This document shows positions 2,698 through 63,000 of a stretch of 64,000 nucleotides of DNA, piece by piece. The notes beneath the pieces are model-generated. The model searched no databases. It saw nothing but the letters and a program-made list of their open reading frames with translations, and was not told the origin of the DNA. The translations under genes were made by a program, and so were the position numbers. Position 1 is the stretch's first letter; every line of letters begins with the position of its first letter. Origin of the DNA: Cetorhinus maximus (lineage: Eukaryota); contig NC_135901.1 in assembly GCF_964194155.1 (NCBI RefSeq), positions 31,186,001-31,250,000 of the forward strand. The letters run 5' to 3'.

Positions 2698-3099
2698 GGT
2701 GCGGGTGTCCTTTGGTCGCCTCAGATTCAATGATCAACTGAGCAGTCCACACACAGAACATGTGTACAGTCCCTCCCGTGATGTTTTATCAGGCTGCGTA
2801 ACTGGTCAAAGCTCTTTCCACAGTCAGTGCACTGGAACACTCTCACTCGGATGTGTCTGTCTCAGGGCATTTCCAATAACACTGATTTTAAAACCTGAAG
2901 CAGAATGAACAGTCAAACATTTCTCCTTCTAGATTCAAAGGCCATTGACATTCAGCTCCCGCTGAATTGAGTGACTCTGTCAGATCTTGCTGTAACATGT
3001 GGTTTGAGATCTGTCTGCAAAATCTCCCCCTCTAATATTCTGTAAAAGGTGTTTACAAAAGTCATCACTGTCAGTCGATGATAGCAAATCAGAACAGCT

Positions 3100-4275: not shown

Positions 4276-5218
4276 AGCAACAGAGATGTGTCTAGTGTAG
4301 TTATATGGTACGTATTAGATACATTATTGATGGATCTGTAATACAGTACATTTATTATTATTTCATGATTTTTTGTATTGTGCAGTAAATATTTAGTTAT
4401 AAAATCATTAGGGCACAGAAGGAGTCCATTTGGCAACTTGAGCCCATTCCAACTCTCTGTAGAATAATCCAGTCTGTCCCATTCTCCCTCTATATACCCG
4501 TTCATCTGCAGCTTTATTTCCTTCAAGAGCCCATCTAATTTCATTTTGAAATTATTGGTCGTCTCCGCTTCCACCACTCTCATGGACAGCGAGTTCGAGC
4601 TCATCGCCACATGAAGTTCTACCTCACAGCCCCATGTATCTGTAATCATGTAACAGAGTACTGTGTATTACACACATTTTGAGTGCAGTAATGTTGGGTG
4701 TTTATTAGGTACAGCAGAGTGAGAATAGAGGGAGAATGGGTGGGATGGAGATTTACAGCTATTGGGGAACAACAGAGGGAAGAATGTTCCATAGAAACTA
4801 GAATTGTCTGTTCTGAATTTCTATCCTGTACTGACAGTGATAACTTGTATAAATTCCTTTTACAGGATATTAGAAGAGGATTTGCAGACAGAAATCTCAA
4901 ACCAACATCACATCGAGATCTGACAGAGTCATTTGATTCATGGGACCAGACTATCATGAGCATTTGAATCTAGAAGGAATAATGTTTCTCTGTTTTTTTC
5001 TGCTTCTAAAGATTTTAAACATCCGTGTGATCAGGAAAGTACCGAGACACCCGCACCCATGTTCCAGTGCACTAACTGTGGAAAGCACTTCAACCAGTTA
5101 CATTGTCTGAAAAAATCATCGAACCTTTCACAGCAGAGAGAGACCATACCTCTGTACTGTGTGAGGAAGAAGCTACAAATGATCGTCAGACCTGAAGAGT
5201 CACAAGGAGACCCTCACC

Positions 5219-10380: not shown

Positions 10381-10789
10381 GGTGCGGGTGTCCTTTGGTC
10401 GCCTCAGATTCAATGATCAACTGAGCAGTCCACACACAGAACATGTGTACAGACCCTCCCGTGATGTTTTATCAGGCTGCGTAACTGGTCAAAGCTCTTT
10501 CCACAGTCAGTGCACTGGAACACTCTCACTCGGATATGTCTGTCTCAGTGCATTTCCAATAACACCGATTTTAAAACCTGAAGCAGAATGAACAGTCAAA
10601 CATTTCTCCTTCTAGATTCAAAGGCCATTGACATTCAGCTCCCGATGAATTGAGTGACTCTGTCAGATCTTGCTGTAACATGTGGTTTGAGATCTGTCTG
10701 CAAAATCTCCCCTTCTAATATTCTGTAAAAGGTGTTTACAAAAGTCATCACTGTCAGTCGATGATAGCAAATCAGAACAGCTGAATTCA

Positions 10790-11600
10790 GCTCCTGTAAG
10801 TCAACAATTTGCTCCCAGAATGAGAAAAGAAATGGAAAGGGGGAAACATTGATTTCCTCCCAGATGTTGCCCAGAGGAGGAAGTTTTAGTCTGAAGCTCA
10901 TTGTCCAACTTCCGCATTGTGACGTCCACAACGGATCCCTGCCTGAATCAGCCAATAGGAATCACTCTGCTCCGCGGTGATGTCCTCGGGTTCCAACCTG
11001 CAGGCCAGGTGCGTGGCCACGGAACCCCGCCCCCACCCATTGTTCCCCCTCCCCCTCCGCCACCTCGAGACAAGGTTTCCAGGCAACCGGCTGACGGCTC
11101 CGGCCAGAGCGAGAAGCCGCTCGGAGAACTCGGGAGAGGGGAAGCTGCGCATGTGCGGGGGAGAGCCCGCCCCTTCCCTTCATGCTGAGGGGCTGACCAA
11201 TAGAAAGAGTTGGAGGACCGGAAGGGCTCTGGTCCTCCAGCCAATCAGAGCGCGGGCTTTGTGTGATTCAAGATTGAGCTTCACACAGACTAAAAGTTCC
11301 TCCTGTGTCCAACATCTGTGAGTAAAACACTTTCTTTTCTCCCTCTTTCCATTTCTTTTCTCATTCTGGGGGGAAATTGTTGACTTGCAGGAACTGAAGG
11401 GAAAGGAAGTGAATCCAGGGAGGGTGCAGACTCTGGAAAGGTTGGCCCAGGTCTCTCTCTCTCTCTCTCTCTCAAAGACATTGACATCCTTTGCTCCCTC
11501 AGCTTGACACATTTATTTGTCTGGCTAAAAGGATGGTCTCTTTCCTAATGTTCACAATTAAAGGGGTGGTTTCCCCAGGAGATGGCTGACATTTAAGGGG
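10790..11600. promoter_or_regulatory. Bidirectional promoter module P2 (type alpha) between ZNF C and D
   Basis: Same motifs and order as P1, plus CCGGAAG (ETS-like). Lacks the 3408-3540 insertion. Confidence 0.7.
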
Positions 11601-13029
11601 ACAGTGAATTAATATAGGACAGAGATGTGTCTAATGTTGTGATCGGGAACAGTTTAGATATATTATTTGTCGTCCTATAATTAAATTAATTTATTATCCT
11701 TTCCAGTCTTGTAGTATAGGAATGTAGCTGTGTCTATATTTCTAGACATAGGGTCATAACGACACAGAAGGAATTCATATACCCCCTTCTATATCCCCGT
11801 TCCCCTGCAAGTATATTTCCATCAAGTGTCCGTCGAATTTCATTCTGAAATCAATGATGATCTTCAGTTCCACCATCCTCAGAGACATTGAATTCCAGGT
11901 CATGATCACTCACTCCGAAATACAGTTCTTTCTTGCATTCCCCCATACCTCTAATCATGCAGTACATATTCTATTATATTACAACATTTGTACTCCTGTA
12001 ATATGTTCATGTATATGGCTCACAGCTCTGTTTGCTGGACTGACAGTACTGAACATGGATCTGTCAATCGGGATGAATTTGCACCTTCAGGAGAATTGGG
12101 AGGTTGTATATTAGGTACAGCAGAGTGAGATTGGAGGGAGAGTGTGTGCAACAGTGATTTACAGGTTTTGGGGAACAGGAGAGGAAAGAATGTTTCATAG
12201 AAACTAGAATTGTCTGTTATGAATTTCTATCCTGTACTGACAGTGATGACTTTTGTAAACCCCTTTTGCAGGATATTAGAGGGGGAGGATTTGCAGACAG
12301 AAATCTCAAACCAAAAATCACATCAAGATCTCACAGTGTCATTCAATTCATCAGGACCTGAACATAATTGACCTTTGAATGTTGGGAAACGTTTGTCTGT
12401 TCTGTCTGTGGGGAAAGATTCTAAACATTGGTGTGATTGGAAAAGCACCGAGACACACACACCCGAGTGAGCGTGTTCCAGTGCACCGACTGTGGAAAGA
12501 CTTTTAACCAGTTACACAGCCTGAAAAAAAAATCACACCATTCACAGCGGGGAGAGACTGTACATGTGTTATCTGCATGTATGAGGCTTCAACTGATCGT
12601 CAAACACAGAGAGACATAAGGACACCCACACCATGGAGAAACCATAGAAATGTGGGGACTGTGGGAAGGGATTCCGGAACCCGTCTGTGCTAGAAATTCT
12701 CAAACCAAAATTCACGTTAGCATCTGCCAGAGTCACTCGATTCATTAGGACCTGAATATCATCGGCCTTTGAATCTAGAAGGAGAAATGATTGTCTGTTC
12801 TGTCTGCTTCAAAATGTTTCAAACATCAGTGTGATTGGAAAAGCACCGAGACATACACACCCGAGTGAGAGTGTTCAAGTGCACCGACTGTGGAAAGAGC
12901 TTTAACCAGTTACACAGACTGAAAAAACATCACACCGTTCACAAAGGGGAGACACCACGCATGTGTTCTGAGTGTGGACAAGGCACCAATTGATCAACAG
13001 ACGTGGAGATACACGAGGGCACACGCATC

Positions 13030-14649
13030 ATGGAGAAACTGTGGAAATGTGGGGACGGTGGGAAGGGATTCCAAACCACATCTATGCTGGAAACTCATCG
13101 ACACATTCACACCGGGGAGAGGCCATTCACCTGCCCTGTGTGTGGGAAGGGATTCACTCATTCCTCACACCTAGTGGCACACCAGATCACTCACACCAGG
13201 GAGAGGCCACTCACCTGCTCTATGTGTGGAAAGGGATTCACTCATTCCTCACACCTAGTGGCACATCAGGTCGCTCACACCAGGGAGAGGCCGCTCACCT
13301 GCTCTGTGTGTGGGAAAGGATTCACTCAGTCATCCCACCTAGTGGCACACCAGATAGCTCACACCAAGGAGAGGCCGCTCACCTGCTCTGTGTGTGGGAA
13401 GGGATTCAGTAAACCATTACATTTACTGGCACACCAGGTAGCTCACACCAGGGAGAGGCTGCTCACCTGCTCTGTGTGTGGGAAAGGATTCACTCATTCA
13501 TCCCACCTAGTGGCACACCAGGTAGTTCACACCAGGGAGAAGCTATTCACCTGCTCTGAGTGTGGGAAGGGATTCACTCAGTCATCCCACCTACTGGCAC
13601 ACCAGGTAGTTCACACTGGGGAGAGGCTGTTCACCTGCTCTGTTTGTGGGAAGGGATTCACTCAGTCATCCCACCTAGTGACACACCAAGTTGCTCACAC
13701 CAGGGAGAGGCCGTTCTCCTGCTCTGAGTGTGGGAAGGGATTCACTCAGACATCCCACCTAGTGGCACACCAGGCAGTTCACACAGAGGAGAGGTCGTTC
13801 ACCTGCACTGAGTGTGGGAAGGGATTCACTCAGTCTGCGCACCTAGTGGCACACCAGGTAGTTCACACTGAGGAGAGGCCGTTCACCTGCACTGAGTGTG
13901 GTAAGGGATTCACTCAGTCAACCCACCTAGTGGCACACCAGGTAGTTCACACCAGGGAGAAGCCATTCACCTGCTGTGTGTGTGGGAAGGGATTCACTCA
14001 GTCATCCCACCTAGTGGCACACCAGGTAGTTCACACCAGGGAGAGGCCATTCACCTGCTCTGTGTGTGGGAAGGGATTCACTCATTCATCCCACCTAGTG
14101 GCACACCAGGTCGCTCACACCGGGGAGAGGCTGTTCACCTGCACTGAGTGTGGGAAGGGATTCACTCAGTCTGCGCACCTAGTGGCACACCAGGTAGTTC
14201 ACAACAGGGAGAGGCCATTCACCTGCTCTGTGTGTGGGAAGGGATTCACTCAGTCCTCACACCTTGTGGCACACCAGTTAGTTCACACAGAGGAGAGGCC
14301 TTTCACCTGCTCTGAGTGTGGGAAGGGATTCACTCAGTCTGCGCACCTAGTGGCACACCAGGTAGTTCACACCAAGGAGAGGCCGTTCACCTGCTCTGTG
14401 TGTGGGAAGGGATTTGCTCAGTTATCTCACCTGCTGACACACCAACAGGTTCATACTGGAAAAGACCATTCACCCGCTCTCGATGTGGGAAGGATTCACT
14501 CGGTCGTCCCATCTGCAGACACACTGGCAAGTTCACACTGGAGAGAGGCCCTTCGTTTGCTCCATGTGTGGGAAGGGATTCGCTCTTTCATCCTACCTGC
14601 TGACACATCAACAGGGTCACCCTGGGGCGAGGCCGTTTGCCTGCTCTGA
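13030..14649 (+). CDS. C2H2 zinc-finger protein D, 17 in-frame fingers with homogenised (Q/H)SxHLVA helices; C-terminal frameshift
   Basis: 84-bp tandem unit. The first finger has C->G. The frame shifts after finger 17, and ~3 further fingers lie in another frame up to ~14690. Confidence 0.8.
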
Positions 14650-18979: not shown

Positions 18980-19899
18980 GGTGCAGGTGTCCTCGTGTCT
19001 TTCCAGGTTCAGTAATTAACTGAGGGGTCCACATACACAACATGTGTCCACTCTCCTGCGCTGTGAATGATGCGATGTTTCTTCAGGCTGTGTAACTGGT
19101 GACAGCTGTTTCCACACTCAGTGCACTGGAAACACTCTCACTCGGGTGTGTGTGTCTCGGTGCTTTTCCAGTCCCCCTGATGTTTAAAACCTTCTGAAGC
19201 AGACAGAACGGACGAACATTTCTCCTTCAAGATTCAAAGGCCAATGATATTCGGGTCTTGATGAATTGTGTGACTCTGTCAGATCTTGACGTGACATTTG
19301 GTTTGAGATTTCTGTCTGCAAATCTTCCCCTTCTAATATCTTGTAAAAGGAGTTTACAAGTCATCACTGTCAGTACAGGATAGAAATTCAGAAAAGACAA
19401 TTCTAGTTTCTCTGGATCATTCTTTGCTTTCATTCCCTAAAAGTTATAAATCTCTGTCCCCCACACTCTCACTCCATTCTCACTCTGTTGTAACTAATTT
19501 TCGACCCTTCCAATTCTCCTGAAGGTGCCGTTTCATGCGAATCGACAGATTCATGCTCAGTATTTCCTGTGCAGGACACGGAGAGCTGAAAATCTTTGTA
19601 CAGGCTGCAAGACCTGGAACTCACTGACTGGTGGAAACGGAGACAATCAATGATTTCAAAATGAAATTCGCTGGGAAATAAACTTGTAGGGAATGGGGAT
19701 ATAGAGGGGGAATGGGACTGACTGGATTGCTCTACTGGGAGTTGGCATGGACTCCTTTTGTGCCATCGTGACTGGAAATATATAATGTAGCTACAGTACT
19801 ATATTACAAGACTAGAAATAATAAATGCATTTTAATACAGAACCAGAAATAATACATTGCATATGTACAATATAACAGCACGAGACATATCTCTGTCCT

Positions 19900-21438: not shown

Positions 21439-24330
21439 ATAAGACCATAAGTCATAGGAGCAGAAATTAGGCCATTCGGCCCATCGAGTCTGCTCCGCCA
21501 TTCAATCATGGCTGATAAGTTTCTCAACCCCATTCTCCTGCCTTCTCCCCGTAACCTTTGATCACCTTACCAATCAAGAACCTATCTATCTCGGTCTTTA
21601 ATACACTCAATGACCTGGCCTCCACAGCCTTCTGTGGCAATGAATTCCATAGATTCACCAGTCTCTGGCTAAGAAGTTTCTCCTCATCTCTGTTCTAAAA
21701 GGTCTTCCCTTTACTCTGAGGCTGTGCCCTCGGGTCCTAGTCTCTCCTACTAATGGAACATCTTCCCCACGTCCACTCTATCCAGGCCTTTCAGTATTCT
21801 GTAAGTTTCAATCGGATCTCCCCGTTTCCTTCTAAACTCCATCGAGTATAGACCCAGCGTCCTCAAACGTTCCTCATATGTTAAGCCTTTCATTCCTGGG
21901 ATCATTCTCGTGAACCTCCTCTGGATCCTCTCCAGGACCAGCACATCCTTTCTGAGATACGGGGCCCAAAATTGCTCACAATATTCTAAATGTGGTCTGA
22001 CCAGAGCCTTATAAAGCCTCAGCAGCACATCCCTGCTTTTATATTCTAGTCCTCTCGAAATAAATGCCAACATTGCATTTGCCTTCCTAACTACAGCCTC
22101 AACCTGCAAGTTAACCTTAAGAGAATCCTGGACTAGGACTTCCAAATCCCTTTGCACTCCAGATTTCTGAATTCTCTACCCATTTAGAAAATAGTCTATG
22201 CCTCTATTCTTCCTACCAAAGTGCATGACCTCACACTTGCCCACATTGCATTCCATCTGCCACTTCTTTGCCCATTCTCCTAACCTGTCCAAATCCTTAT
22301 GCAGCCTCCCTGCCTCCTCAATACTACCTGTCCCTCCACCTATCTTTGTATCATCTACAAACTTAGCCAGGATGCCCTCAGTTCCTTCATCTAGATCATT
22401 AATGTATAAAGTGAAAAGTTGTGGTCCCAACACTGACCCCTGCGGAACTCCACTAGTCACCGGCCGCCATCCTGTGAAGGACCCCCTTATCCCCACTCTC
22501 TGCCTCCTGCCAGACAGCCAATCTTCTATCCATGCTAGTACCTTGCCTCTAACACCATGGGCTCTTATCTTACTGAGCAGCCTCCTGTGCGGCACCTTGT
22601 CAAAGGCCTTCTGGAAATCCAAATAGATAACATCCATTGGCTCTTCTTTGTCTAACCTACTCGTTACCTCCTCAAAGAATTCTAACAGATTTGTCAGGCA
22701 TGACCTCCCCTTGATGAAACCATGCTGACTTTGCCCGATTTTACCATGCACTTCCAAGTATTCTGAAATCTCATCCTTAATAATGGACTCTAAAATCTTA
22801 CCAACGACCGAGGTCAGGCCAATCGGCTTGTAGTTTCCTGACTTTTGCCTCACTCCGTTCTTAAACAGGGGTGTTACATTAGCAATTTTCTAGTCCTCTG
22901 GGACCCTCCCTGATTCCAGTGATTCTTGAGAGATCACCACTAACGCCTCCACTATCTCTTCAGCTATCTCCTTCAGAACTCTGGGGTGTAATCCATCTGG
23001 TCCAGGTGATTTATCCACCTTCAGACCTTTCAGTTTTCCTAGCACCTTCTCCTTGGTAATGGCCACTATACTCACCTCTGCTCCCCGACTCTCTTGAACT
23101 TTGGGGATGTCACTTGTGTCTTCCACTGTGAAGACTGACGCAAAGTACCTATTCAGTTCCTCCGCCATTTCTTTGTTCCCCACTACTACTTCTCCAGCGT
23201 CATTTTACAGCGGCCCAATGTCTACTTTTGCCTCTCTCTTACCCTTTATATATCTAAAAAAACTCTTGCAATCTTCTTTTATATTACTGGCTAGTTTGCC
23301 CTCATATTTAATCTTCTCCCTCCTTATTTCTTTTTTAGTTGTCCTCTGTTGGTCTTTGTAGGCTTCCCAATCCCCTGGTTTCCCACTGCTCTTCGCCGCA
23401 TTGTATGCTTTCTCTTTAGCTTTTATGCTGTCCCTGACTTCCCTTGTCAGCCATGGTTGCCTCGACCTCCCTTTAGTATGCTTCTTCTTCCTAGGGATGA
23501 ATTTTTGCTGTGTCTCCCAAATTACTCCCAGAAACTCCTGCCATTGCTGTTCCACTGTCTTTCCTGCTAGGCTCATCTCCCAGTCAATTCTGGCCAGCTC
23601 CTCCCTCATGCCTCTGTAGTTGCCTTTATTCAACTGTAATACCGTTACATCTGATTCCAGCTTTTTCCTCTCAAATTCTATCATATTATGGTCACTTCCT
23701 CCTAAGGGTTCCTTCACCTTAAGCTCCTTTATCAAATCTGCCTCATTACACATCACTAAATCTAGAATTGCCTGTTCCCTAGTGGGCTCCACCACAAGCT
23801 GCTCCAAAAAGCCATCTCGTAGACATTCCACAAATTTCTTTTCTTGGGATCCACTACCAACCTGATTTTCCCAGTCTACCTGCATATTGAAATCCCCCAT
23901 GATCACTGTAACCTTGCCTTTCTTACACACCTTTTCTACCTCCTGGTGTATCTTGTGCCCCACATCCTGACTACTGTTCGGAGGCCTGTACATAACTCCC
24001 ATTATGGTTTTTTTACCTTTGCGGTTCCTCAACTCTATCCACACAGATTTTATGTCATCTGACCCTACATCATTTCTTGCTATCGATTTAATTTCATTTC
24101 TTACTAACAAAGCAACCCCATCCCCTCTGCCAACCTGCCTATCTTTTCGTTAGGATGCATATCCTTGGATATTTAGCTCCCAGTCCTGATCCCCCTGCAG
24201 CCATGTCTCCGTAATGCCCATCACATCATCACATCACATGCCAATTTCAATCTGTGCCACAAGCTCATTTACCTTATTTCGTATACTGTGTGCATTCAGA
24301 TACAACACCTCCAGTCCTGTATTTCCCGTC
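21439..24330 (-). mobile_element. CR1 LINE, ~2.9 kb, ORF2 (APE endonuclease plus RT) broken by frameshifts, in the intron of ZNF F
   Basis: ORFs 23205-24110 (YRPP, MGDFN, LDLV, SDHN), 22890-23183, 22176-22853 (GVPQGSVLGP, FVDD) and 21750-22157. 3' tail repeats CTTATGG-like units. Confidence 0.92.
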
Positions 24331-24755: not shown

Positions 24756-25447
24756 AGGGGATAAATAGAGCCCTTCTTCACATTCCCCTTGTATCTTAAT
24801 CAAGTGAGACAATGCAGGTTATTACACATTTTTCATGCAGTAAGATAGACATATATGTTTAACCACCTACTTGAAGATTTTCAGGTCTCTTTGTGCTGAA
24901 AATGCAGGAAGCGGTGAGCATGGATCTGTTGGTCAACATGAATCAGGAGAACTGGGAGGGTGTATATTAGGTACAGCAGAGTGAGAATGGAGGAAGAGTG
25001 TATGGGACAGAGATTCACACCTTTTGGGGAATGACAGAAGAATGAATGTTCCACATGAACTAGAATTCTCAGTTCTAAAATGTTATCCTGTACTGATTAT
25101 TACAAACTTTTTGTGACAGGATATCACAAGGGGAGGATTTTCATACAAAAACCTCAAAACAAACATGTCAAGATCTGACAGAGTTGCTTGATTCATCGGA
25201 ACACAGATATTCTCAGCTTTTGAATCTAGAAGGAGAAATGTTTGTCTGTTCTGTCTGCTTCAAAAGATTTTAAACGTTATCGTGACTGGAAAAGCACCGA
25301 GACACACAGACCCGAGTGTGGAAAAAGCTTGAACCAGTTAAACAGCCTGAGTAGACATCATAGTGTAGAGAGAGAGTACAAGTGTCCGTGTGTGGACGAG
25401 ACTTCAGCTGATTGCCAGACCTGGAGATTCACAAGGACAACCGCACC

Positions 25448-34494: not shown

Positions 34495-35084
34495 GGTGCG
34501 CGTGTCCTTGTGTCTCTCCAGGTTCGACGATCAGTTGAAGCCTCGTCCTTGCACAGAACTTGTGTACGATCTCCCCGCTGTGAATGGTGCAATGTTTTTT
34601 CAGCCTGTGTAACTGGTTAAAGCTCTTTCCACAGTCAGTGCACTGGATCACTGTGTGTGTGTGTCGGTGCTTTTCCAGTCACACTGATGTTTAAAATCTT
34701 TTAAAGTAGACAGAACAGACAAACATTTCTCCTTCTAGATTCAAAAGCCAATGATATTCAGGTCCTGATGAGCCCAGTGACTCTGTAAGAACTTAACCTT
34801 TGATTTCAGATTTCTGTCTGTAAATCCTCCCCTGCTGACATCCTGTAAAAAGAATAGAATTCACAACCGTCATCACGATCAGTACAGGTTAGAAATTCAG
34901 AACAGACAATTCTAGCTTCTGTGGGGCATTCTTTACTCTCTCGTTCCCCAAAAGCTGTGAATCTCTGTTCCACACACCCTCTCTCCATTCTTACTCTGCT
35001 GTACCTAATATACACCCTCCCAATTCTCCTGAAGGTTCATGTTGATCGACAGATCCACGCTCACCACTTCCTGTCAGGACAGAG

Positions 35085-38517: not shown

Positions 38518-40165
38518 CACAGAAATATAGAAACTTGGAGCAGGAGTAGGCCATTCGGCCCTTCGAGCCTGCTCCCCCATTCATTCTGATCATGGCTGAT
38601 CATCCAACTCAATAGCCTGCTCCCGCTTTCTCCCCATACTCTTCGATCCCTTTCGCCCCAAGAGCTATATCTAACGCCTTCTTGAAAGCATACAATGTAT
38701 TGGTCTCAACTACTTTCTGTGATAGCGAATTCCACAGGCTCACCACGCTCTGGGTGAAGAAATTTCTCCTCATCTCAGTCCTAAATGGTCAACCCCATAT
38801 CCTCAGACTGTGACCCCTGGTTCTGGACTCCCTCACCATCGGGAACATTCTTTCTGCATCCACCCTGTCTAGTCCTGTTAGAATTTAATAGGTTTCTATG
38901 AGATTACCCCTCATTCTTCTGAACTCCAGCGAATATAATCCTAATCGACTCAATATCTCCTCATATGTCAGTCCCGCCATCCCAGGAATCAGTCGGGTAA
39001 ACCTTCGCTGCACTCCCTCTATAGCAAGAACATCCTTCCTCAGATAAGGAGACCAAAACTGCACACAATATTCCAGGCACTGTACAATTGCAACAAGACA
39101 TCCCTGTTCCTGTACTCGAATCCTCTGGCTATGAAGGCCAACATACCATTTGCCTTCTTTACCGCCGGCTGCACCTGCATGCTTACCTTCAGCGGCTGGT
39201 GTACAAGGACACCCAGGTCTTGTTGCACATTCCCCGCTCTCAATTTATAGCCATTTAGATAATAATCTGCCTTCCTGTTTTTGCTACCAAAATGGATAAC
39301 CTCACATTTATCCACATTATACTGCACCTGCCATGCATTTGCCCACTCACTCAGCTTGTCCAAATCACACTGAAGCATCTCTGCATCCTCCTCACAGCTC
39401 ACCTTCCCACCCAGCTTTGTGTCATCTGCAAATTTTGAGGTATTACTTTTAATTCCCTCATCCAAATCATTAATATATATTGTGAATAAATGGGGTCCCA
39501 GCACCGATCCCTGCGGTACCCCGCTAGTCACTGCCTGCCATTCGGAAAAAGACCCGTTTATTCCTACTCTTTTGTTTCCTGTCTGCCAATCAATTTTCTA
39601 TCCATCTCAATATACTACCCCCAATCCCTTGCACTTTAATTTTACACGCCAATCTCTTACGTGGGACTTTGTTGAAAGCCTTCTGAAAGTCCAAATAAAC
39701 CAGGTCCAATGGCTCCCCCTCATCAACTCTACTAGTTACATCCTTGAAAAATTCCAGTAGATTTGTCAAGCATGATATCTCTTTCACAAATCCATGCTGA
39801 CTCTGTCCGATTCTGCCACTGTTTTCCACATGCTCAGCTATTAAATCTTTTATAATGGATTCTAGAATTTTCCCCACTACCGACGTCAGGCTGACTGGTC
39901 TATAATTCCCTGTTTTCTCTCTGTCTCCCTTTTTAAATAGTGGGGTTACATTAGGTACCCTCCAATCTGTAGGAACTGTTCTAGAGTATATAGAATCTCG
40001 GATGATGACCACCAATTCACTATTTCTAGGACCACTTCCTTAAGTACTCTGGGATGTAGATTATCAAGCCCTGGGGACTTATCAGCCTTTAATCTCATCA
40101 ATTTCCCCAACACCATTTCCCTACTAATACTGATTTCTTTCAGTTCCTCCCTCTCACTAAACCCT
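38518..40165 (-). mobile_element. 5'-truncated CR1 LINE (RT plus 3' UTR)
   Basis: ORFs 39590-40015 and 39040-39531 (NYRPVSLTS, GVPQGSVLGP, FADD). Absent from the paralogous site at ~54690. Possible TCAAAAAA TSD. Confidence 0.88.
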
Positions 40166-42006: not shown

Positions 42007-42765
42007 TCACTTGTGAACTCGCTGGTGTCTCAGCAAGTGCGATGAGTGAGTGAATCCCTTCCCACACTGAGTGCAGATGAACGGCCTCTCTCCAGTGTGA
42101 ACTCGCTGGTGTGTCTGCAGATTGGATGAATGAGTGAATCCCTTCCCACACTCAGTGCAGGTGAACGGTCTCTGCCCGGTGTGAACTCGCTTGTGGGTCT
42201 GCAGGCTGTATGAGTCAGTGAATCCCTTCCTGCACTCAGCGCAGGTGAAGGGCCTGTCCCCGGTGTGAATTCGCTGGTGTGCCAGCAGGGTGGATGAAAC
42301 AGTGAATCCCTTCCCACACTCAGAACAGGTGAATGGCCTCTCCCCGCTGTGAACTCGCTGGTGTTTTCTAAGGTCAGATGAATTACTGAATCCTTTCCCA
42401 CACTCAGAGCAGGTGAACGGCCTCTCCCCGCTGTGAACTCGCTGGTGTGTCTGCAGATGGGTTGAAATACTGAATCCCTTCCCACACTCAGAACAAGTGA
42501 ATGGCTTTTCCCCGGTGTGAACTCGCTGATGCCTCTGGAAGTTGGATGAATCACTGAATCCCATCCCACACTCAGAGCAGGTGAAGGGCCTCTCCCCGGT
42601 GTGAACTCGCTGGTGGGTCCGCAGGGTGGAAGGAGCAGTGAATCCCTTCCCACACTCAGGGCAGGTGAACGGCCTCTCCCCGGTGTGACTGCGTCGATGC
42701 GTTTCCAGCTTCGATGGGGTTTTGAATCCCTTCCCACAGTCCCCACATTTCCATGGTTTCTCCAT
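42007..42765 (-). CDS. C2H2 zinc-finger protein H (9 intact fingers)
   Basis: Start gcacc[14 protein letters not shown]...HQRVHK*. Family 3' UTR at 41735-42006. Confidence 0.85.
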
Positions 42766-44129
42766 GGTGCGCGTGTCCTTGTGTCTCTCCAGGTTCAACA
42801 ATCACTTGAAGCCTCGTCCTCACACAGAACACATGAACGGTCTCTCTCCACTGTGAATGGTGTGATGTTTTTTCAGGCTGTGTAACTGGTTTAAGCTCTT
42901 TCCACAGTCAGTGCACTGGAAGACTCTCACTCAGGTGTGTGTGTCTCAGTGCTTTTCCGGCCACACTGATGTTTAAAATATTTTGAAGCAGACAGAACAA
43001 AACATTTCTCCTTCTAGGTTCAAAGGCCAGTGATATTCAGGTTGCGATCAATCAAGTGACTGTCAGATTTTGACGTGAAGTTTGGTTTGAGATTTCAGTC
43101 TGCAAATCCACCCCTTCTAATATCCTGTAAAAGGAGTTTATAAAATACATCACTGTCAGTACAGGATAGAAATTCAGAACAATTTTAGGTTCTGTGGTGT
43201 ACTCTCTCATTCCCCAAAAGCTGTTAGTCTCCTTAGCACACACTCTCCCTACATTCCAACTCTGCTATACTTTCTCTCCATTCTCATTCTGCTGTATCTA
43301 ATATATACACAACAGTACTGCACCTAAAGAGTGTGAAATGTACAGAACTCTTACATGATTAGAGACACTTGGGGCTGTGAGGGAGAACTTTATTTTGACA
43401 GCAAGTGGTGTTGATCTGTAACTCGCTGCCTATGAGGGTGGAAGAAGTGGAGGCGATCAATGATTTCAAAATGAAATTGGATGGGCACTTGAAGGAAATA
43501 AACTTGCAGAGGAACGGGGATATAGAGGGGGAATGGGACTGACTGGATTGCTCTACAGAGAGTCGGCATGGACTCAGATTACTGAATCGACTCCCTTCTG
43601 TGCTGTAATGACTCTATGACTGGAAATAAATAACATAGCTACAGCACTATATTACAAGACTAGAAATAATAATAAATGTGCTTTATTACAGAAAAATAAA
43701 TATACAAAATCAGACATATTACAATATTTTCTGAGGTGCACAATTCCTCTGAAGTAAAATAAGGGACACTTCAGCCGCGGGGCTGGAGGCATGGGTGAGG
43801 GAGTGGGTGGTGACAGAGAGAGTAGGTTGCGAGGGGGGGTTGTGTTTCAATGTGAGATGGGGGTAGGGGTGGAGAGGAGGGGCCTTGTGACAATAATAGT
43901 GAGAGGGGTGAGGGTTAAAATCAACTAAATCTTACAATTCATCTTGTTCAGTCACAACATCATCATCTCTCTATGGCCGACTCACTGACTTACCGTCCCA
44001 CTCAAATCACTCAAACTCACCCTGAAGACTCCCAGGATCAGTTTCCCACAGGTTGTCCTAGAAAAACGAGACAAAAGAGAAAATCAGGAGCAATCCCTTA
44101 AAATACAGGACAGTTAATCACCCTGAAAT

Positions 44130-44908
44130 TGTCCCCTTAAATGTCAGCCATCTCCTGGGGAAACCACCCCTTTAATTGTGAACATTAGGAAAGAGACCAT
44201 CCTTTTAGCCAGACAAATAAATGTGTCAAGCTGAGGGAGCAAAGGATGTCAATGTCTTTAAGAGAGAGAGAGAAAGACCTGGGCCAACCTTTCCAGAGTC
44301 TGCACCCTCCCTGGATTCACTTCCTTTCCCTTCAGTTCCTGCAAGTCAACAATTTCCCCCAGAATGAGAAAAGAAATGGAAAGGGGCAGAAAAGAAAGTG
44401 TTTTACTCACAGATGTTGGACACAGGAGGAAGTTTTAGTCTGGGTGAAGCTCAATCTTCATTCACACAAAGCCCGCACTCTGATTGGCTAGAGGACCAGA
44501 GTCCTTCCGGTTCTCCATCTCACCCCATTGGTCAGTCTCCGGCGTGCAGACAATGGGGTAGCGGAAGCCTTCGCGAGCGCGGCGGATACTTTGATCCCCA
44601 TGACGATTTCCGTGTTTGGCCAATGGGAATAGACATAACCTGCGCATGCGCACATTCCACTCACCCTCGGACATGCGCAGTCCCGGTCCGCCCGCCCGCG
44701 CGGCGGATAGAGCGGTTTCCCAAGCGCGGTGGATTGTGGGGGCTGCGGCCGCCATTACTCATCAGGAGCCCAGTCTCCAAACTCCTGGGACTGGGATGGA
44801 AAGTGGGGGTGAGGGGCGCAGTGACCCCGCCCTGACACAAAGTACATGTGGGTAGTCACTGGATTTGATTGTGACGTCCCCTTAGCAAAACAGTTAGTTA
44901 ACTTCAGA
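44130..44908. promoter_or_regulatory. Bidirectional promoter module P5 (type beta) upstream of ZNF H
   Basis: Homologous to P4 and P6. Contains a perfect TGCGCATGCGCA (NRF1 consensus) at 44641-44652 and CCAAT boxes. Confidence 0.7.
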
Positions 44909-46042
44909 CATAAGAAGGTTCAGACACTTGGTATCGATGGAGAGGTTGTAAACTGGATTCGAAATTGGCTGTGTGGGAGAAGACAGAGAGTGGTAGTGGA
45001 TGATTGCTTCTCAGACTGGAGGTCTGTGACTAGTGGTGTGCCTCAGGGGTCTGTGCTGGGACCATTGTTGTTTGTTGTCTATATCAATGATTTGGATGAT
45101 AATGTGGTGAATTGGATCAGCAAGTTTGCTGATGACACTAAGATTGGAGGCGTTGTGGACAGCGAGGAAGGCTTTCAAAGCTTGCAGACAGATCTGGACC
45201 AACTGGAAAAATGGGCCAGAAAATGGCAGATGGAATTTAATGCGGATAAGTGTGAGGTGTTACATTTTGGAAGGTCAAACCAAGGTAGGACATACACAGT
45301 AAATGGTAGGGCACTGCGGAGTGCGGAGGAACAAAGGGATCTGGGAGTTCAGATACATAATTCCCTGAAAGTGGCGTCACAGGTAGACAAGGTTGTAAAG
45401 AAAGTTTGTGGCATACTGGCCTTCATAAATCAAAGTATTGAGTATAGGAGTTGGGATGTTATGGTGAGGTTGCATAAGACATTGGTGAGGCCAACTTTGA
45501 AGTATTGTGTGCAGTTCTGGTCGCCTAACTACAGGAAAGATATCAGTAAGATCAAGAGAGTGCAGAGAAGATTTACTAGGGTGTTGCCGGGTCTTAAGGA
45601 GTTGAGTTACAGGGAAAGATTAAACAGGTTAGGACTTTATTCCTTGGAGCATAGAAGAATGAGGGGAGATATGATAGAAGTTTATAAAATTATGAGGGGT
45701 ATAGACAGAGTAAATGCGAGTAGGCTCTTCCACTTAGATTAGGAGAAATAAACACGAGAGGACATGGCTTTAGGGTGAAAGGGGAAAGGTTTAGGGGGAA
45801 TATTAGGGGGAACTTCTTCACTCAGAGAGTGGTGAGAGTGTGGAATGAGCTACCATCTGACATGGTAAATGCGGGCTCACTCTTAAGTTTTAAGAATAAA
45901 TTAGATAGATACATGGATGGGAGATGTCTGGAGGGTTATGGACTAGGTGCAGGTCAATGGGACTAGCGGAATAATATTTCGGCACAGACTAGAAGGGCCG
46001 AATGGCCTGTTTTCTGTGCTCTTCTATGGTTCTATGGTTCTA
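44909..46042 (+). mobile_element. Relatively young 5'-truncated CR1 LINE inserted in the beta arm of P5
   Basis: Uninterrupted RT text in ORF 44846-45742; 3' tail (TTCTATGG)n. The empty site AACTTCAGGTGGAAAGATTTAGACACC is at ~37171-37197. Confidence 0.9.
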
Positions 46043-47835: not shown

Positions 47836-48029
47836 TGGAGCGTAATAATCCAGATAAATATCAAATAAATCAGCTTTGTTTTGGACACACAGTTTGTCAA
47901 GTCCTTGATGTCAGTGAAATGAGAAAAGGTAGGTTTTAAGCAGAATCTTAAAGGAGGAGAGAGAAGTGGAGGGGTTAAGGGAGGGAATTCCAGAGCTCAG
48001 GAACCTGGCAGCTAAAGACTGAAAGAGTA

Positions 48030-48125
48030 TCAGCCCTCGATTATTGGGGACTCGAGTCTGTGGAGTGGGGACTTGAACCCACGACCTTCAGACTCAGAGG
48101 CGAGTGTATGAGACTGACTAAGCCC
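48030..48125 (-). mobile_element. tRNA-derived SINE head (DeuSINE/SacSINE-like), next to an L2-like fragment
   Basis: GGAGTGGGACTTGAACCCACGACCTTCAGACTCAGAGGCGAG; its reverse complement carries the B box GGTTCAAGTCC. Matches 57700-57770. Confidence 0.6.
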
Positions 48126-48300
48126 TGGTGTTCGAGGAAGTGATGTGAAGTCTCAGCTGCCTCATCCTTTCTCTGTACTTTGCCCCATTCCAGGATCAGC
48201 AGATCGAGCTGAGGATCTGGGCAACAATTAAAAAGGGGCAAGAAGAAAGTTACGAGAATAAACTTCTTCACCCAGAGAGTGGTGAGAATGTGGCACTCGC

Positions 48301-50045
48301 TCCTAAACCTAAGCATAAACCTAAATGTAACCCTAACCCTAAAACTAACCACAGCCCTAAACCTAACCCTAAACCGAAACCTAACCCTAAAGCTAACCAT
48401 AACCCGAATCCTTACCTAACCCTAAAACAAACCCTGAACCTAACCATAAACCTCACCATAACCCTAAACCTAACTCTAGACTTAACCATAGTCCTAAACC
48501 TAACAATAACCCTAAATTTAACCTGAAACCGAACCATGAACCCAACACTAACCCTAATGCTAACCCTAAACCTAACCATAACCTTAGATCTAACCATAAC
48601 TCTAAACCTAACGCTAACCTAGGCCTAAACCTAACCATAAACCTAAACCTAGCCTTAAAGCTAACCCTAACCCTAAACCTAACCCTAAAACTAACCATAA
48701 CCCTAAACCTAACCCTAACCCTAGACCTAACAATTACCCTAAATCTAATCCTAGACCTAACCATAACCCTAAACTTAACAATAACCAAACTTAATCGTAA
48801 ACCTAACCCTAAATCTAATCATGACACTAAAACTAACCCTAAACCTAACTCTATCTATAACCCTAAACCTAACCGTGAACCTAACGATAAACCTAAACAT
48901 AACCATAACCCTAACCCCATCCCTAAACCTAACCCTTCACCTAACTATAGCCCTAAGTCTAACCCTCAACCTAGCCAAAACACTAACCCTAACCCTAAGC
49001 CTCACCATAACCCTAAATCTAACCGTAGGCCTAACCATAACCCTAACCCTAGCCTAACCTAAAAGCTAACCCTACACCTAACTGGAACCCAAACATAACC
49101 ATAACCCTAAACCTATCCATGACCCTAAATCTAACCCTAAACCTAACCATTATTCTAACCCTAACCCTAAACCTAACCCAAAAGCTAACTTAAACCCTAA
49201 TCCTAACCCTAAACCTAACCCTAACCCTAAAGCTAACACAAAAGCTAACTTATACCCTAAACCTAGCCCTAAACCTAACCATAACCCTAAACATAACCTT
49301 AGCCTAACCCTTAAATAACCCTGACCCTAAACCTAACCTTCAACCTAACCATAACCCGAAATCTAACCCTAAACATAGCCAAAACCCTAACACTGTCCCT
49401 AAACCTCACCATAACCCTAAATATAACCTTAGACCTAACCGTAGCCTGAAACCTAACAATAACACAAAATCTTACCTTAAACCTAACACTGACCCTAACA
49501 CTGACCCTAACCTAACCCTAAACCTAACCCTAAACCTAACCCTAAAACAAAACATAAGCCTAAACCTATCCAGAATACTAAACTTAACCATAACACTAAA
49601 CCTAACCATGAACCCAACCATAACCATAAACCTAACCCTAACCTTAACCCTAACCCTCACCCTAAAATTAACACTAAACCTAACACTACCCTAAAACTAA
49701 ACGTAAAACTAACCATAACCCTAACTCTAAACCTAACCATAACCCTAAACATAAGCCGAAACCTAACACTAACCCTGAAACTAATCATAGCCCTAAACCT
49801 AACACTGACCCTAACCATAAGCCTAAACCCAACCCTAACCTTAAACCTAACCCAAATCCTAAACCTAACCATAACCCTAAACCTAAACTTAACCCTGAAC
49901 CTAACCATAGCCCTAACGGTAACCATAACCCTAAACCAAAGCCTAAACCCAACCATAACCCTAAATCTAACCATAGCCCGAACCCTGGTCCCAAACATAA
50001 CCCTAAAGTTAACCTAACCCTAACTTTACCCCAAACCTAACCTTA
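48301..50045 (+). repeat. Degenerate interstitial telomere-like array, (CCCTAA)n variants
   Basis: 6-nt period throughout: CCCTAA, ACCTAA, CCATAA. The unit CCCTAAACCTAACCATAA recurs. Confidence 0.9.
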
Positions 50046-50364
50046 GGATGTGATGCTGAAAGTGAACTGTTTTATTGGAAAATAATTTCAGCTGAGAGTC
50101 CCTGAATGAATGAGGAGAGATCATAAACAGCAGTTCTTAAAGAGACACTGCTCACCCAGCAAATCAGCAAACCCAATTTATCCCACATCAAGGACATGAC
50201 ACAGCGTGTTCAATCCAAAACTGTTTAATTCCACTTACATCCAGAATATTAAACTCCATCTCAGTTACAGGGGTTATTAACATGAGCAGAAATAAACCCC
50301 AACGGTCAGGATGAATATAGTTTGCTCCAAGATCTGAATAACAGCAGAATCCTTCTCCTTCTCT

Positions 50365-52353: not shown

Positions 52354-52919
52354 CTGTATATTACACACATTTTTAGTGCAGCACTGTTGGGTGTATATTA
52401 GATACAGCAGAGTGAGAATGGAGGGAGAGTGCATTGGGGACGGAGATTTACAGCTTTTGGGGAACGAGAGAGGAAAGAATGTTCCATAGAAACTAGAATT
52501 GTCTGTTCTGAATTTCTATCCTGTACTGACAGTGATGACTTGTGTAAACTCCTTTTACAGACTATTAGAAGGGGAGGATTTGCAGACAGAAATCTTAAAA
52601 CAAACTTGGCATCAAGATCTGACAGAATCACTCGATTCATCGCGACCTGAATATCATTGGCCTTTGAATCTAGAAGGAGGTTTGTCTGTTCTGTATGCTT
52701 CAAGAAAATTTTAAACAACATTTTGACCAGAAAAGCACCGAGACCCCCATACCCGAGTGAGAGTGTTTCCAGTGCACTGACTGTGGAAAGAGCTTTCACC
52801 AGTTACACAGCCTGAAAAAACATCACTCACAGTGAGGAGAGACATTATAGATGTTCTGTGTGTGAGGACGAGGATTCAACTGATCATCAAACCTGGAGAG
52901 ACACAAGGATACGCGCACC

Positions 52920-58609: not shown

Positions 58610-59665
58610 GAACATATGAACAGGGAGCAGGAGGAGGCCATTCAGCCCCTCGAACCTGCTCCGCCATTTAATAAGATCGTGGCTGATCTGACAGTAACCT
58701 GAAATCTGCAGCCCACCTACCCCCGATAACCTATCACCCCCCTGCCTACCAAGAATCTATCACTTCTGCCTTAAAAGAATTCAAAGACTCTGCTTCCTGC
58801 ACATTTTCAGGAAGAGAGTTCCAAAGGCTCATGACCCTCTGAGTGAAATAATTTCGCCTCATCTCTGTTGTAAATGGGTAACCCCTTATTGTTAAACAGT
58901 GACCCCCTAGTTCTAGATTCCCCCACCAGAGGAAACATCCTCTCCCCATCCACCCTGTAAAGACCTCTTAGCATCTTATATGTTTCAATCAAGTCACCTC
59001 TTACTCTTGTACACTCCAGCGGATACAAGCCCTGTTCAACCTTTCCTAATAAGACAACCCTCCCATTCCAGGTATTGGTCTGGTAAACCTTCTCTGAACT
59101 GCTTCCAACCCATTTACATCCTTAAATAAGGTAACCAATACTGCACACAGTCCTCCAGATCAACCCATTTACATCCTTCCTTAAATAAGGTGACCAATAC
59201 TGCACACAGTCCTCCACATCTGGTCCCGCTAGTGCCCTGTACAACTGAACCATAACCTCCCTACTTATGTATTCAATTCCCCTCACAATAAATGATAACG
59301 TTCTATTAGCTTTCCTAAAAACCTGCTGCACTTGCAGACTAGCCTTTTGTGAATCACACATTAGGACACCCAGGTCCCTCCGCACCTCAGAGCTCTGCAA
59401 TCTCCCACCATTTAGATAATATGCTTCTCTTTTATTCTTCCTGCCAAAATGGACAATTTCACATTTTCCCACATTATGCTCCATCTGCCAGGTCCTTGAC
59501 CACTCACTTTCTAGAACTGTTTGTAGCCTCCTTTTCTCCTCTTCACAACCTACTTTCCCAACTATCTTTGTGTCATCAGCAAAGTTGGCAACCATCCCTT
59601 CAATCCCTTCATCCAAGTAATTTATATAAATTGTAAACAGTTGAGGTCCAGGCACTGATCACTGT
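58610..59665 (-). mobile_element. 5'-truncated CR1 LINE with a ~55-bp internal tandem duplication
   Basis: GPQLFTIYIN...FADDTKI...CVQYWSPYLRKDV. 59106-59160 is repeated at 59161-59220. Confidence 0.85.
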
Positions 59666-60429: not shown

Positions 60430-61257
60430 GCTGCAGGTGTCCTTGTGTCTCTCCAAGTTTGACAATCAGTTGAACCCTCGTCCACACACAGAACACGTGT
60501 ATGGTCTCTCCCCGCTGTGAATGGTGTGATGTTTTTTCAACTGCATAACTGTTTAAAGTTCTTTCAACAGTCAGTGCAATGGAACATTCTGAATCGGGCG
60601 TGTCTGTGTCTCCTTCAGGATTCAAAGGCCGATAATATTCAGGTCCCAGTGAATGAAGTAATAATGTCAGATCTTGACGTGACAGTTAGTTTGAGATTTC
60701 TGGCAGAAAATCCTCCCCTTGCAGTCACCTGTAAAAAGTTTAGAAAAATCATTACTATCAGGACAGCATAGAAATTCAGAAAAGACAATCCTAGTTTCTA
60801 TGGAACATTCTTTTCCCCTCTTGTTACCCATTAACTGTAAATCTCCATCCCACACACTCTCCCTCCATTCTCACTCTGCTGTACCTAATAAATACCCTCC
60901 CAATTCTCCTGAAGGTGCTGACTCACACTGATCGACAGACCCATGCTCACTGCTTCCTGTCCAGGCCCAGTGAGATTGCAACTCACCACCTATGACGGTC
61001 GTGGAAGCAGAGGCAATCAATACTTTCACAATATATATGCTCAGTGGACTAAAAATGTGTGGAAAACACAGGACTGTACTACGTGATGAGAGCTACCTGG
61101 GGGATGAGGGAGAAATTTGTTCGGGCAGCGAGTGGACATGATCTGGAATTCACTCACTGTGAGGATGGTGGCAGCAGAGATCATCAGTGATTTCAAAATG
61201 AAATTGGATGGGTACTTGAAGAAAATAATCTTGCAGGGGAACGGGATATAGAGGGGG

Positions 61258-62040: not shown

Positions 62041-63000
62041 AAATTAATATAGGACAGATTTATGTCTAGTGTTTTCACATGGTACATATTAGATGTATTA
62101 TGGTTCTGTAATAAAGTACATTTGCCAAATATTTATAGTCTTGTAATGTAGTACTGTAGCTTCGTTATACATTTCCAGTCATAGAGTCATTACGGCACAG
62201 AAGGAGTCCATTTAAAAAAGTGAAACCTTTGTGCTCATTGAGGTTGTGGTTGTCCGGGAATTTGTTTATTTTAAGGTTATTGGACCCCATGGAGATCGTA
62301 ACAACAGAGATGTGTCTAGTGTTGTTATAGGTCACGACCACTCACTTCCTAAGGAAAGGTCTTCCTCACATCCCCTCATGTATCTCTAATGAAGTGGTGC
62401 ATTACTGTATATTGCACATATTTTCAGTCCTCTAATATAAATATATATATGGCTGGTGGCCTGCATGAACATTTTCAGGTCTGTGTTCTGGACAGGAAGT
62501 GGTGAGCATGGATCTGTCGATCAGCATGAATGGGGGGAGTGTGTGTGGGATGGAGATTTACAGCTTTTGGGTAACAAGAGAGGAAAGAATGTTCTAGAGA
62601 GACTAGAATTGTCTGTTCTGAATTTCTATCCAGCACTGACAGTGATGACTTTTGTAAACTTCTTTTGCAGGATCTTAGAAGAGGAGGTTTTGCAAACAAA
62701 AATCTCAAGCTAAAGGCCAAGATCTGACAGAGTCACTCAGTTCATCGGGACCTGAATATGATCAGCCTTTGAATCTAGAAGGGGAAACAATTGCCTGTTC
62801 TGTCTGCTGCAAAAGGTTTTAAACATCAGTGTGACTGGAAAAGCATTGAGACACACGCTTCCAAGTGAGAGTGTTCCAGTTCACTGACCGTGGAAAGAGT
62901 TTTAACAAGTTACACAGCCTGAGAAAACATCACCATTCACAGTGGAGAGAGACTGTACACGTGACGTTTGAACTTCAATAGTCACAAGGACAACCACTCA

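What the first reader, a model, noticed from the sequence alone, without database searches (positions are those of the whole stretch)
12787..13032. Fossil zinc fingers as 5' UTR, with a stop codon fixed exactly 13 codons before the ATG in 11 of 11 genes
Seen: upstream of the MEKPWK start, the same frame encodes three more decayed fingers. In D they read [83 protein letters not shown], open apart from two TGA codons (12832, 12991) at helix positions +3 and -1. The second stop lies 39 nt before the ATG in every copy: A 2736, B 5180, C 10419, D 12991, E 19018, F 25409, G 34533, H 42804, J 52881, K 60468 and L 62962. Ten are TGA and E has TAA. The neighbouring codons vary, and L keeps the stop despite an adjacent deletion. 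Inference: an ancestral longer ZNF was truncated (possibly CGA>TGA) and the stop is now maintained, e.g. as a uORF terminator for re-initiation or a regulated read-through switch between short and N-extended proteins. Simple shared ancestry remains a real alternative.
Basis: partly seen in the sequence, partly recalled or inferred. Interest (0 to 1): 0.7.

Follow-up and report, generated by a model that had tools for sequence, protein, structure and literature searches.

The report
Inherited stop before shark zinc-finger genes
Hundreds of shark-type zinc-finger genes carry a stop codon 39 bases before their likely start, most likely because all descend from one truncated founder; the stop is lost less often than nearby untranslated bases, which may reflect weak selection, but it is likely no read-through switch.

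Summary
Observation confirmed: 11 of 11 window genes have a stop 39 nt before the ATG. In 202 copies from 1.93 Mb it is a stop in 183, a sense codon in 15, unaligned in 4. Sister genes carry CGA/CAA there, so a founder's CGA>TGA is likely. The neighbouring codons vary because they are CpGs. The fossil fingers evolve like untranslated DNA (dN/dS-like about 1, frameshifts in most copies), and RNA-like contigs place them in exon 2. A read-through switch is not supported, and an AUG feeds this stop in only 34 of 198 copies. Yet stop-losing changes are 12 against 29-32 expected (P 0.002-0.003), while TGA>TAA runs at the normal rate. The fresh 49-gene sample alone is not significant (6 against 9-10), and the deficit persists where another stop shields the site. 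Weak selection and a mutational cold spot stay open. A 31-copy sub-lineage lost stop and ATG and reads through the third finger. The scan noted this family before on other DNA, calling the leader neutral.

The parts
11197..11245 (+). Two CCAAT boxes (11197-11201, 11241-11245) in the likely bidirectional promoter between genes C and D
   Evidence: sequence; function inferred
11246..11317 (+). Short first exon of D (5' end not determined); donor GT at 11318
   Evidence: joint 11317>12272 GT..AG in RNA-like runs X3 and X7, not in X1 or X17; homologue in 119 of 155 copies, GT in 110
11318..12271 (+). Intron 1 (954 nt)
   Evidence: acceptor AG in 139 of 145 copies
12272..12699 (+). Start of exon 2: a dead tandem copy of the leader (TGA 12594-12596, ATG 12633, stop after 4 codons)
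12787..13029 (+). Three decayed C2H2 fingers, likely 5' UTR; upstream ATG at 12787
   Evidence: (zf-H2C2_2, E 1.6e-7 for 12835-12990)
12832..12834 (+). First in-frame TGA (-198); stop word in 75% of copies; lost at the background rate
12961..12963 (+). In-frame ATG at -69 (ATG in 30, ACG in 66, ACA in 47 of 202 copies); in D it opens a 10-codon uORF ending at 12991
12991..12993 (+). The TGA at -39
13030..14649 (+). Main ORF of D from the linker-derived ATG: 539 aa, 16 C2H2 fingers, no other domain found
2734..2736 (-). -39 TGA of A (broken gene, stop at codon 5)
5180..5182 (+). -39 TGA of B
10417..10419 (-). -39 TGA of C
19016..19018 (-). -39 TAA of E
25409..25411 (+). -39 TGA of F
34531..34533 (-). 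-39 TGA of G
42802..42804 (-). -39 TGA of H; bridged to the ATG by contigs of RNA-like runs; intron joint 43123>44410
52881..52883 (+). -39 TGA of J
60466..60468 (-). -39 TGA of K
62962..62964 (+). -39 TGA of L, at a 27-nt deletion junction

Best explanation
The stop 39 nt before the ATG is likely a founder's CGA>TGA mutation that tandem duplication copied into hundreds of genes, the three fingers in front decay like untranslated leader, and the stop is probably kept by weak selection as a backstop against stray upstream initiation rather than as a switch. Shown: the stop, its distribution, CGA/CAA in intact sister genes, neutral decay and frameshifts in the fossil, a pooled 2.5-fold deficit of stop-losing changes. 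Inferred: single origin by CpG deamination; translation from the linker ATG; exonic status in this species (seen only in contigs of related organisms whose RNA nature is a guess); and that the deficit is selection on termination. My odds: ancestry plus neutral fossil, no switch, about 0.9; some selection on this word about 0.6; selection on its being a stop about 0.45.
For: Intact sister genes have CGA or CAA at this codon with GGG/AGG in the linker (14 such genes used); one sister gene has its own TGA there (g18987218m). Only 3 of 202 family copies have CGA, whereas true CpGs in the leader change 2-3 times faster than other sites (20.8 against 9-13 events per site). Fossil dN/dS-like ratio 0.99-1.24 against 0.52 in the first coding finger; 80-160 distinct indels per 100 nt in the leader against 23 in coding DNA, about a fifth frame-keeping. 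Stop-losing events 12 against 31.7 (whole leader) or 29.1 (fossil only), P 0.0017 and 0.0033; stop-keeping 13 against 9-10; O/E 0.39-0.41, like the splice acceptor (0.38) and the ATG (0.51); rank 3 of 303 triplets. Terminal branches outside the window: 10 against 24.0, P 0.010. Lowest of 23 TGA/TCA words in leader and intron in the first sample (7 against 14-34). One TAA>TAG change keeps a stop. New in-frame stops between stop and ATG: 3 against 10.6 at non-CpG sites. A sub-lineage that lost stop and linker ATG has an ATG at -69 and open frames, which suggests that the upstream start can be used.
Against: The 49-gene second sample alone gives 6 against 9-10 (P 0.16-0.34, rank 44-62 of 303). 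The T of the stop changes at a normal rate (9 against 12.1); the deficit sits on the A (3 against 12.6) and on G transversions (1 against 7.0), and A in two other TGA words is as quiet (3 and 4 events). The deficit is as strong where another in-frame stop lies within 8 codons upstream (3 against 11.4) and is present in broken genes (6 against 11.8, P 0.05). Among copies where an AUG feeds the site the stop is kept in 31 of 34, no better than 152 of 164 without. Site rates are autocorrelated (lag 1: 0.23), so resampling P values are too small; parsimony counts on one tree ignore gene conversion. The site was chosen after it was seen to be invariant.
Confidence: 0.45

Rival explanations
1. Pure shared ancestry: the stop does nothing now, and the deficit is chance plus a locally low mutation rate, picked out after the fact.
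For: Second sample not significant; T normal, A in two other TGA words equally quiet; no dependence on shielding, on an upstream AUG or on gene integrity; the block at -157..-152 is as quiet (ranks 1-2 of 303); 15 of 202 copies have a sense codon, five of them with ATG and 6-13 fingers and unaltered spacing; a stop-less lineage has 31 copies.
Against: Pooled P 0.002-0.003; terminal branches outside the window P 0.010; losses are 12 of 25 changes against 77% expected (binomial P 0.0017); O/E is below 0.6 in each of the four regions with enough copies.
Confidence: 0.33
2. The constraint is on an RNA or DNA motif that happens to read TRA, for instance a branch-point-like CTRAY used with a minor 3' splice site just before the ATG, which would remove the upstream AUGs.
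For: The sequence fits yUnAy (consensus recalled); the A is the most constrained base, G>A (12) and +4 T>C (16 against 6.0) run at or above expectation; +4 is T or C in 192 of 202; leaders carry about 4.7 AUGs each; frame independence fits.
Against: No AG downstream is constrained like the real acceptor (events at -23/-22, -21/-20, -14/-13: 9/18, 10/15, 9/10); no pyrimidine tract; contigs run unbroken across stop and ATG, and no GT..AG joint ends there among the 15 of 510 and 15 of 218 joints shown; one TAA>TAG change removes the A.
Confidence: 0.12
3. One reading: the stop ends a regulatory uORF and ribosomes re-initiate 13 codons later.
For: In D, an ATG at 12961 gives a 10-codon uORF ending at 12991; the stop is lost less often than expected.
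Against: An AUG feeds the stop in 34 of 198 copies (11 of 80 intact copies). TGA>TAA is not depleted (12 against 9.6), whereas in translated human uORFs stop-strengthening changes are under negative selection (PMC7943595, passages). The ATG at -243 is present in 97 of 156 rows and usually meets a stop at -210 or -198.
Confidence: 0.08
4. One reading: regulated read-through or recoding of the TGA gives short and N-extended proteins.
For: In D the frame is open apart from two TGA; spacing is 39 nt in 168 of 198 and indels are fewer between stop and ATG (80 per 100 nt against 118-160).
Against: No coding constraint on the fossil (ratio about 1); 14 of 202 copies keep a usable frame; 5 of 31 indels between stop and ATG keep the frame; TAA in 17 copies; +4 is T in 175 of 202, not the leaky C (context rule recalled).
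Confidence: 0.02

Closest known systems
Lineage-specific tandem C2H2 zinc-finger expansions: tetrapod KRAB-ZNFs and cyprinid FiNZ-ZNFs (Wells et al. 2023, PMC10547256; passages read)
   Same: Hundreds of clustered paralogues, one finger-array exon behind a short upstream exon, many broken copies (91 of 198 lack the ATG or have fewer than 5 fingers).
   Different: No N-terminal domain was found: the ORF starts at a finger linker and the first exon looks non-coding. The paper's main text has no hit for 'shark', 'chondrichth' or 'cartilaginous'; its supplements were not read. KRAB-box families are reported as enriched among those lost in cartilaginous fishes (PMC8455134, passages).
Translated uORFs and their stop codons in human 5' UTRs (PMC7943595; passages read)
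   Same: A weak UGA stop in a leader with several AUGs.
   Different: No conserved AUG feeds this stop, and UGA>UAA is not depleted here.
N-terminal truncation with start-codon shift, former coding DNA turned 5' UTR (general knowledge, no paper read)
   Same: Nonsense change plus downstream ATG in good context (CACC ATG G).
   Different: Here it founded a whole family shared by several shark groups, and one sub-lineage appears to have reversed it in part.

Membership tests
Tandem C2H2 (Kruppel-type) zinc-finger genes | Array of PF00096 fingers with HTGE[KR]P linkers | tested here: met
   16 stretches in D, 7 in J
KRAB-ZNF | KRAB domain in an upstream coding exon | tested here: not met
   No KRAB among the 25 Pfam families of D (all shown) or the best 25 of 40 of J; exon 1 joins a leader with in-frame stops
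FiNZ-ZNF | 28-aa FiNZ domain on its own exon | tested here: inconclusive
   No FiNZ model was run; the ORF begins with the first finger, leaving no room for it
Conserved regulatory uORF with re-initiation (ATF4/GCN4 type, recalled) | Conserved AUG in frame with the conserved stop | tested here: not met
   34 of 198 copies
Conserved regulatory uORF with re-initiation (ATF4/GCN4 type, recalled) | Ribosome occupancy ending at the stop | not testable with these tools
   No ribosome profiling data
Programmed stop-codon read-through | Coding constraint and kept frame on both sides of the stop | tested here: not met
   Ratio 0.99-1.24; 14 of 202 with usable frame
Programmed stop-codon read-through | Leaky context UGA-C (recalled) | tested here: not met
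   +4 is T 175, C 17, A 4, G 1, gap 5
Selenocysteine recoding | UGA only, with a SECIS element | not tested
   No SECIS search; TAA in 17 and TAG in 1 of 202 argue against it
U2 branch point with 3' splice site | yUnAy followed by a constrained AG and a junction in RNA | tested here: inconclusive
   Motif present; no constrained AG; no such joint among those shown, most joints not shown

The most novel reading that the evidence does not exclude
A family of hundreds of genes keeps, by selection, a stop codon that shields its N-terminus from a fossil reading frame, and the leader is a reversible store: when the stop is lost an upstream ATG made by CpG decay can bring a dead finger back into the protein, as a 31-copy sub-lineage appears to have done.
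Probability: 0.35. Interest if true: 0.55.

Novelty: new variant of a known kind. Interest (0 to 1): 0.3.

Why it matters
If the deficit is selection, some hundreds of paralogues give a rare natural replicate series for measuring how much an upstream in-frame stop is worth, and the stop-less sub-lineage would be a dated case of 5' UTR returning to coding. If it is chance, the finding is an ordinary inherited scar that mainly matters for annotation: gene models in other sharks read through or splice around the fossil (P0003, P0007, P0011, P0017). Seven literature searches listed no paper on this shark family or its leader; the library lacks most subscription journals and I read no supplements. 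The scan itself has noted the family at least seven times on other DNA of this genome.

Tried and rejected
No RNA holder listed: no run holding the stretch is on record as RNA; contig depth was not used to rank expression. Genome-wide anchor counts (TGA 430, VGA 12, TAA 11, TGB 7, TYN 25) were used for scale only: they miss TAG/TAY and V-non-GA codons, miss copies without the exact ATG anchor (such as the AGA lineage), include indel-shifted rows and many recent duplicates. By eye they give about 17 stop-losing against 8-11 stop-keeping lineages, a weaker skew than the block sample. My first filter used a query that held the TGA and was replaced by one blind to it; one search counted one gene three times, fixed. 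In one search, 43 of 245 first-finger hits were dropped (sister-type genes, internal fingers, poor alignments), at least three of the 31 new drops with TGA. Second-sample regions were chosen by gene density, and one TAA copy in them was known. An E-box/MYB motif at -43..-38 was rejected because G>A is free; an antisense acceptor because C(-40) is unconstrained. A fold of the majority leader showed nothing that I could test (no shuffle control). Protein searches for a three-finger-extended protein returned 1, 9 and 8 candidates and no clean full-length one; the search is word-limited, so this is weak. A pattern with a wrong last letter found nothing and was corrected. The open relative on C1 was not read. 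No structure, complex, atlas or representative search was run.

Full report
Setting. The window is G000:C24:31186001-31250000 of a 3.99-Gb genome. It holds eleven C2H2 zinc-finger genes on both strands. Named relatives of the proteins are from sharks, so I call the family shark-type. An exact 23-nt anchor at the start codon has TGA 39 nt upstream in 430 places, TAA in 11, and VGA, TGB or TYN in 12, 7 and 25, many of the last shifted by indels. These are lower bounds, mostly on C24.

Observation. Every coordinate is right. But 11 of 11 says little alone: A and C are near twins; two out-of-frame TGA words remain stop words in 12 of 12 window copies; 22 of 81 leader codons are nearly invariant in the window; and at the family rate 11 of 11 has P = 0.34. 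The two codons after the stop vary because they are TCG TCG: CpG sites average 20.8 events against 9-13 for other sites. D is unusually clean; 14 of 202 copies have an in-frame leader with at most two stops, and 115 of 202 have a third stop, TAA at -210.

Anatomy. Contigs of runs guessed to be RNA, from coded organisms A and B, join 11317 to 12272 with GT..AG ends (X3 2 contigs, X7 3; none in X1 or X17), and 43123 to 44410 for H (X3, 1 contig). Contigs of X1 and X3 run unbroken over H's stop and ATG (42744-42887, 42739-42903, 42740-42911). So the fossil is likely the 5' part of exon 2, behind a short first exon at a CCAAT promoter. These are pooled paralogues at 86-88% likeness, and only 15 of 510 and 15 of 218 joints were shown. 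In 155 copies an exon-1 homologue was found for 119, and the acceptor AG is kept in 139 of 145.

Origin. Sister genes on C24 have an intact finger with CGA or CAA at this codon and GGG or AGG where the family has ATG; P0001, P0002 and P0011 begin with this type. A stretch on C1 matches the fossil at 80% inside a 390-codon open frame (not read). So CGA>TGA is the likely origin. The linker ATG may itself come from ACG: ACG or ACA stands there in 7 of 202 copies, and P0001, P0004 and P0007 read TTEK; this is inference. The fossil is old: Heterodontus P0011 carries it in shifted frames whose residues fit both stops, Pristiophorus P0007 and Heterodontus P0003 carry the HKDTRT-type finger, and Scyliorhinus P0017 is a copy with Trp at the first stop (read by eye from gene models). 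Loose ends in X1 and X3 show TGA at the site.

Is the fossil coding? No. In 202 copies from 1.93 Mb (153 + 49 kept of 245 hits) the dN/dS-like ratio is 0.99-1.24 across the fossil fingers against 0.52 in the first coding finger; leader segments carry 80-160 distinct indels per 100 nt against 23, with about a fifth keeping frame; the stop site is out of frame with the ATG in 24 of 198. This removes the read-through switch.

Is the stop kept? I built trees without the tested codon, counted parsimony events per site and drew a null from non-CpG leader sites of the same base. First sample: 6 stop-losing events against 21-23 (P about 0.001; 0.002 without the window genes), 11 stop-keeping against 6-7; lowest of 23 TGA/TCA words. 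Second sample of 49 genes: 6 against 9-10, P 0.16-0.34. Pooled: 12 against 29-32, P 0.002-0.003, rank 3 of 303 triplets, O/E about 0.4, near the acceptor AG (0.38) and the ATG (0.51). Terminal branches outside the window: 10 against 24, P 0.010.

What would keep it? The tests for a translation role mostly fail. An AUG reaches the stop in 34 of 198 copies, and these keep it no better (31 of 34 against 152 of 164). The deficit holds where another in-frame stop shields the site (3 against 11.4), though those stops are partly recent, and in broken genes (6 against 11.8). T changes normally (9 against 12.1); A (3 against 12.6) and G transversions (1 against 7.0) carry the signal. TGA>TAA is not depleted, unlike stop-strengthening changes in translated human uORFs (PMC7943595, passages). 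For a stop function: every tolerated change keeps a stop word, including one TAA>TAG; new in-frame stops and indels are fewer between stop and ATG; near-cognate ACG stands in frame at -69 in 66 of 202. A branch-point-like motif fits the base pattern but has no constrained AG and no visible junction. I commit to weak selection as a backstop at 0.45, pure ancestry with a cold spot at 0.33, a motif at 0.12, a dedicated uORF at 0.08, read-through at 0.02.

A natural experiment. Of 35 matches to one sub-lineage pattern, 31 have AGA for the stop and ATT or ACG for the ATG; 4 have TGA and ATG. Rows of this lineage show an ATG at -69, and its open frames run 230-260 codons. Two copies read in full (L228, L229) are open from -276 and -195; L229 reads from the -69 Met through a complete C-x2-C-x12-H-x3-H pattern into the array, and both nest among TGA copies (SH-like support 0.85-0.86; deeper nodes weak). 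Reversal rather than retention is therefore likely but rests on two copies. The lineage lies mostly in recently duplicated DNA, so its copy number is no sign of advantage. In the unbiased sample stop loss and ATG loss coincide in 5 of 19 against 23 of 183 copies, three of the five from one clade.

Comparison. It is a member of the tandem C2H2 class, not a KRAB-ZNF, and it lacks room for a FiNZ domain (PMC10547256, passages). Seven searches listed no paper on the family; papers other than PMC10547256, PMC7943595 and PMC8455134 were seen as listings only, and no supplements were read. Earlier notes of this scan describe the same family and two call the leader neutral.

Verdict. Real, mostly explained by descent, no switch; a modest unexplained constraint on one codon remains. 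Interest 0.3.

Noticed in passing
G000:C24 2.49-23.3 Mb and small contigs; L228, L229: 31 copies with AGA at -39 and ATT/ACG at the start; an ATG at -69 in the rows seen, giving a predicted protein with the third fossil finger restored.
   Followed up: partly
G000:C1:215370217-215370381 (-); also C1920:51413 and C6:78753807: Matches to the fossil fingers inside open frames of 390, 456 and 351 codons without stops: possible intact three-finger relatives.
   Followed up: no
leader -158..-135 (window about 12872-12895 in D): The quietest block of the leader (9-mer O/E 0.60-0.68) in the pooled data, with a 10-nt palindrome in the majority sequence and a TTCCAG that resembles an acceptor.
   Followed up: partly
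leader -57: TGT>TGA makes another in-frame stop in 38 of 156 rows; 15 parsimony events against 3.3 expected, perhaps spread by gene conversion.
   Followed up: partly
window 10850-11320: Likely bidirectional promoter between C and D with mirrored first exons; C's donor reads GG instead of GT (4 of 119 copies).
   Followed up: partly
window 43941-44056 (-): Extra joints 44056>44410 (X3, X1) and 43124>43941 (X1) suggest a cassette exon in H's intron.
   Followed up: no
window 12272-12699: D and its close paralogues carry a tandem duplicate of the whole leader; paralogues encode 623-735 aa with 20-24 fingers.
   Followed up: partly
window 21753-24149, 39043-40039, 44825-45739, 59125-59658: Broken frames that read like LINE reverse transcriptase/endonuclease fragments (label by eye, not tested).
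   Followed up: no
window 48000-50050: Low-complexity AACCCT-like repeat region giving Pro/Asn/Lys-rich frames.
   Followed up: no
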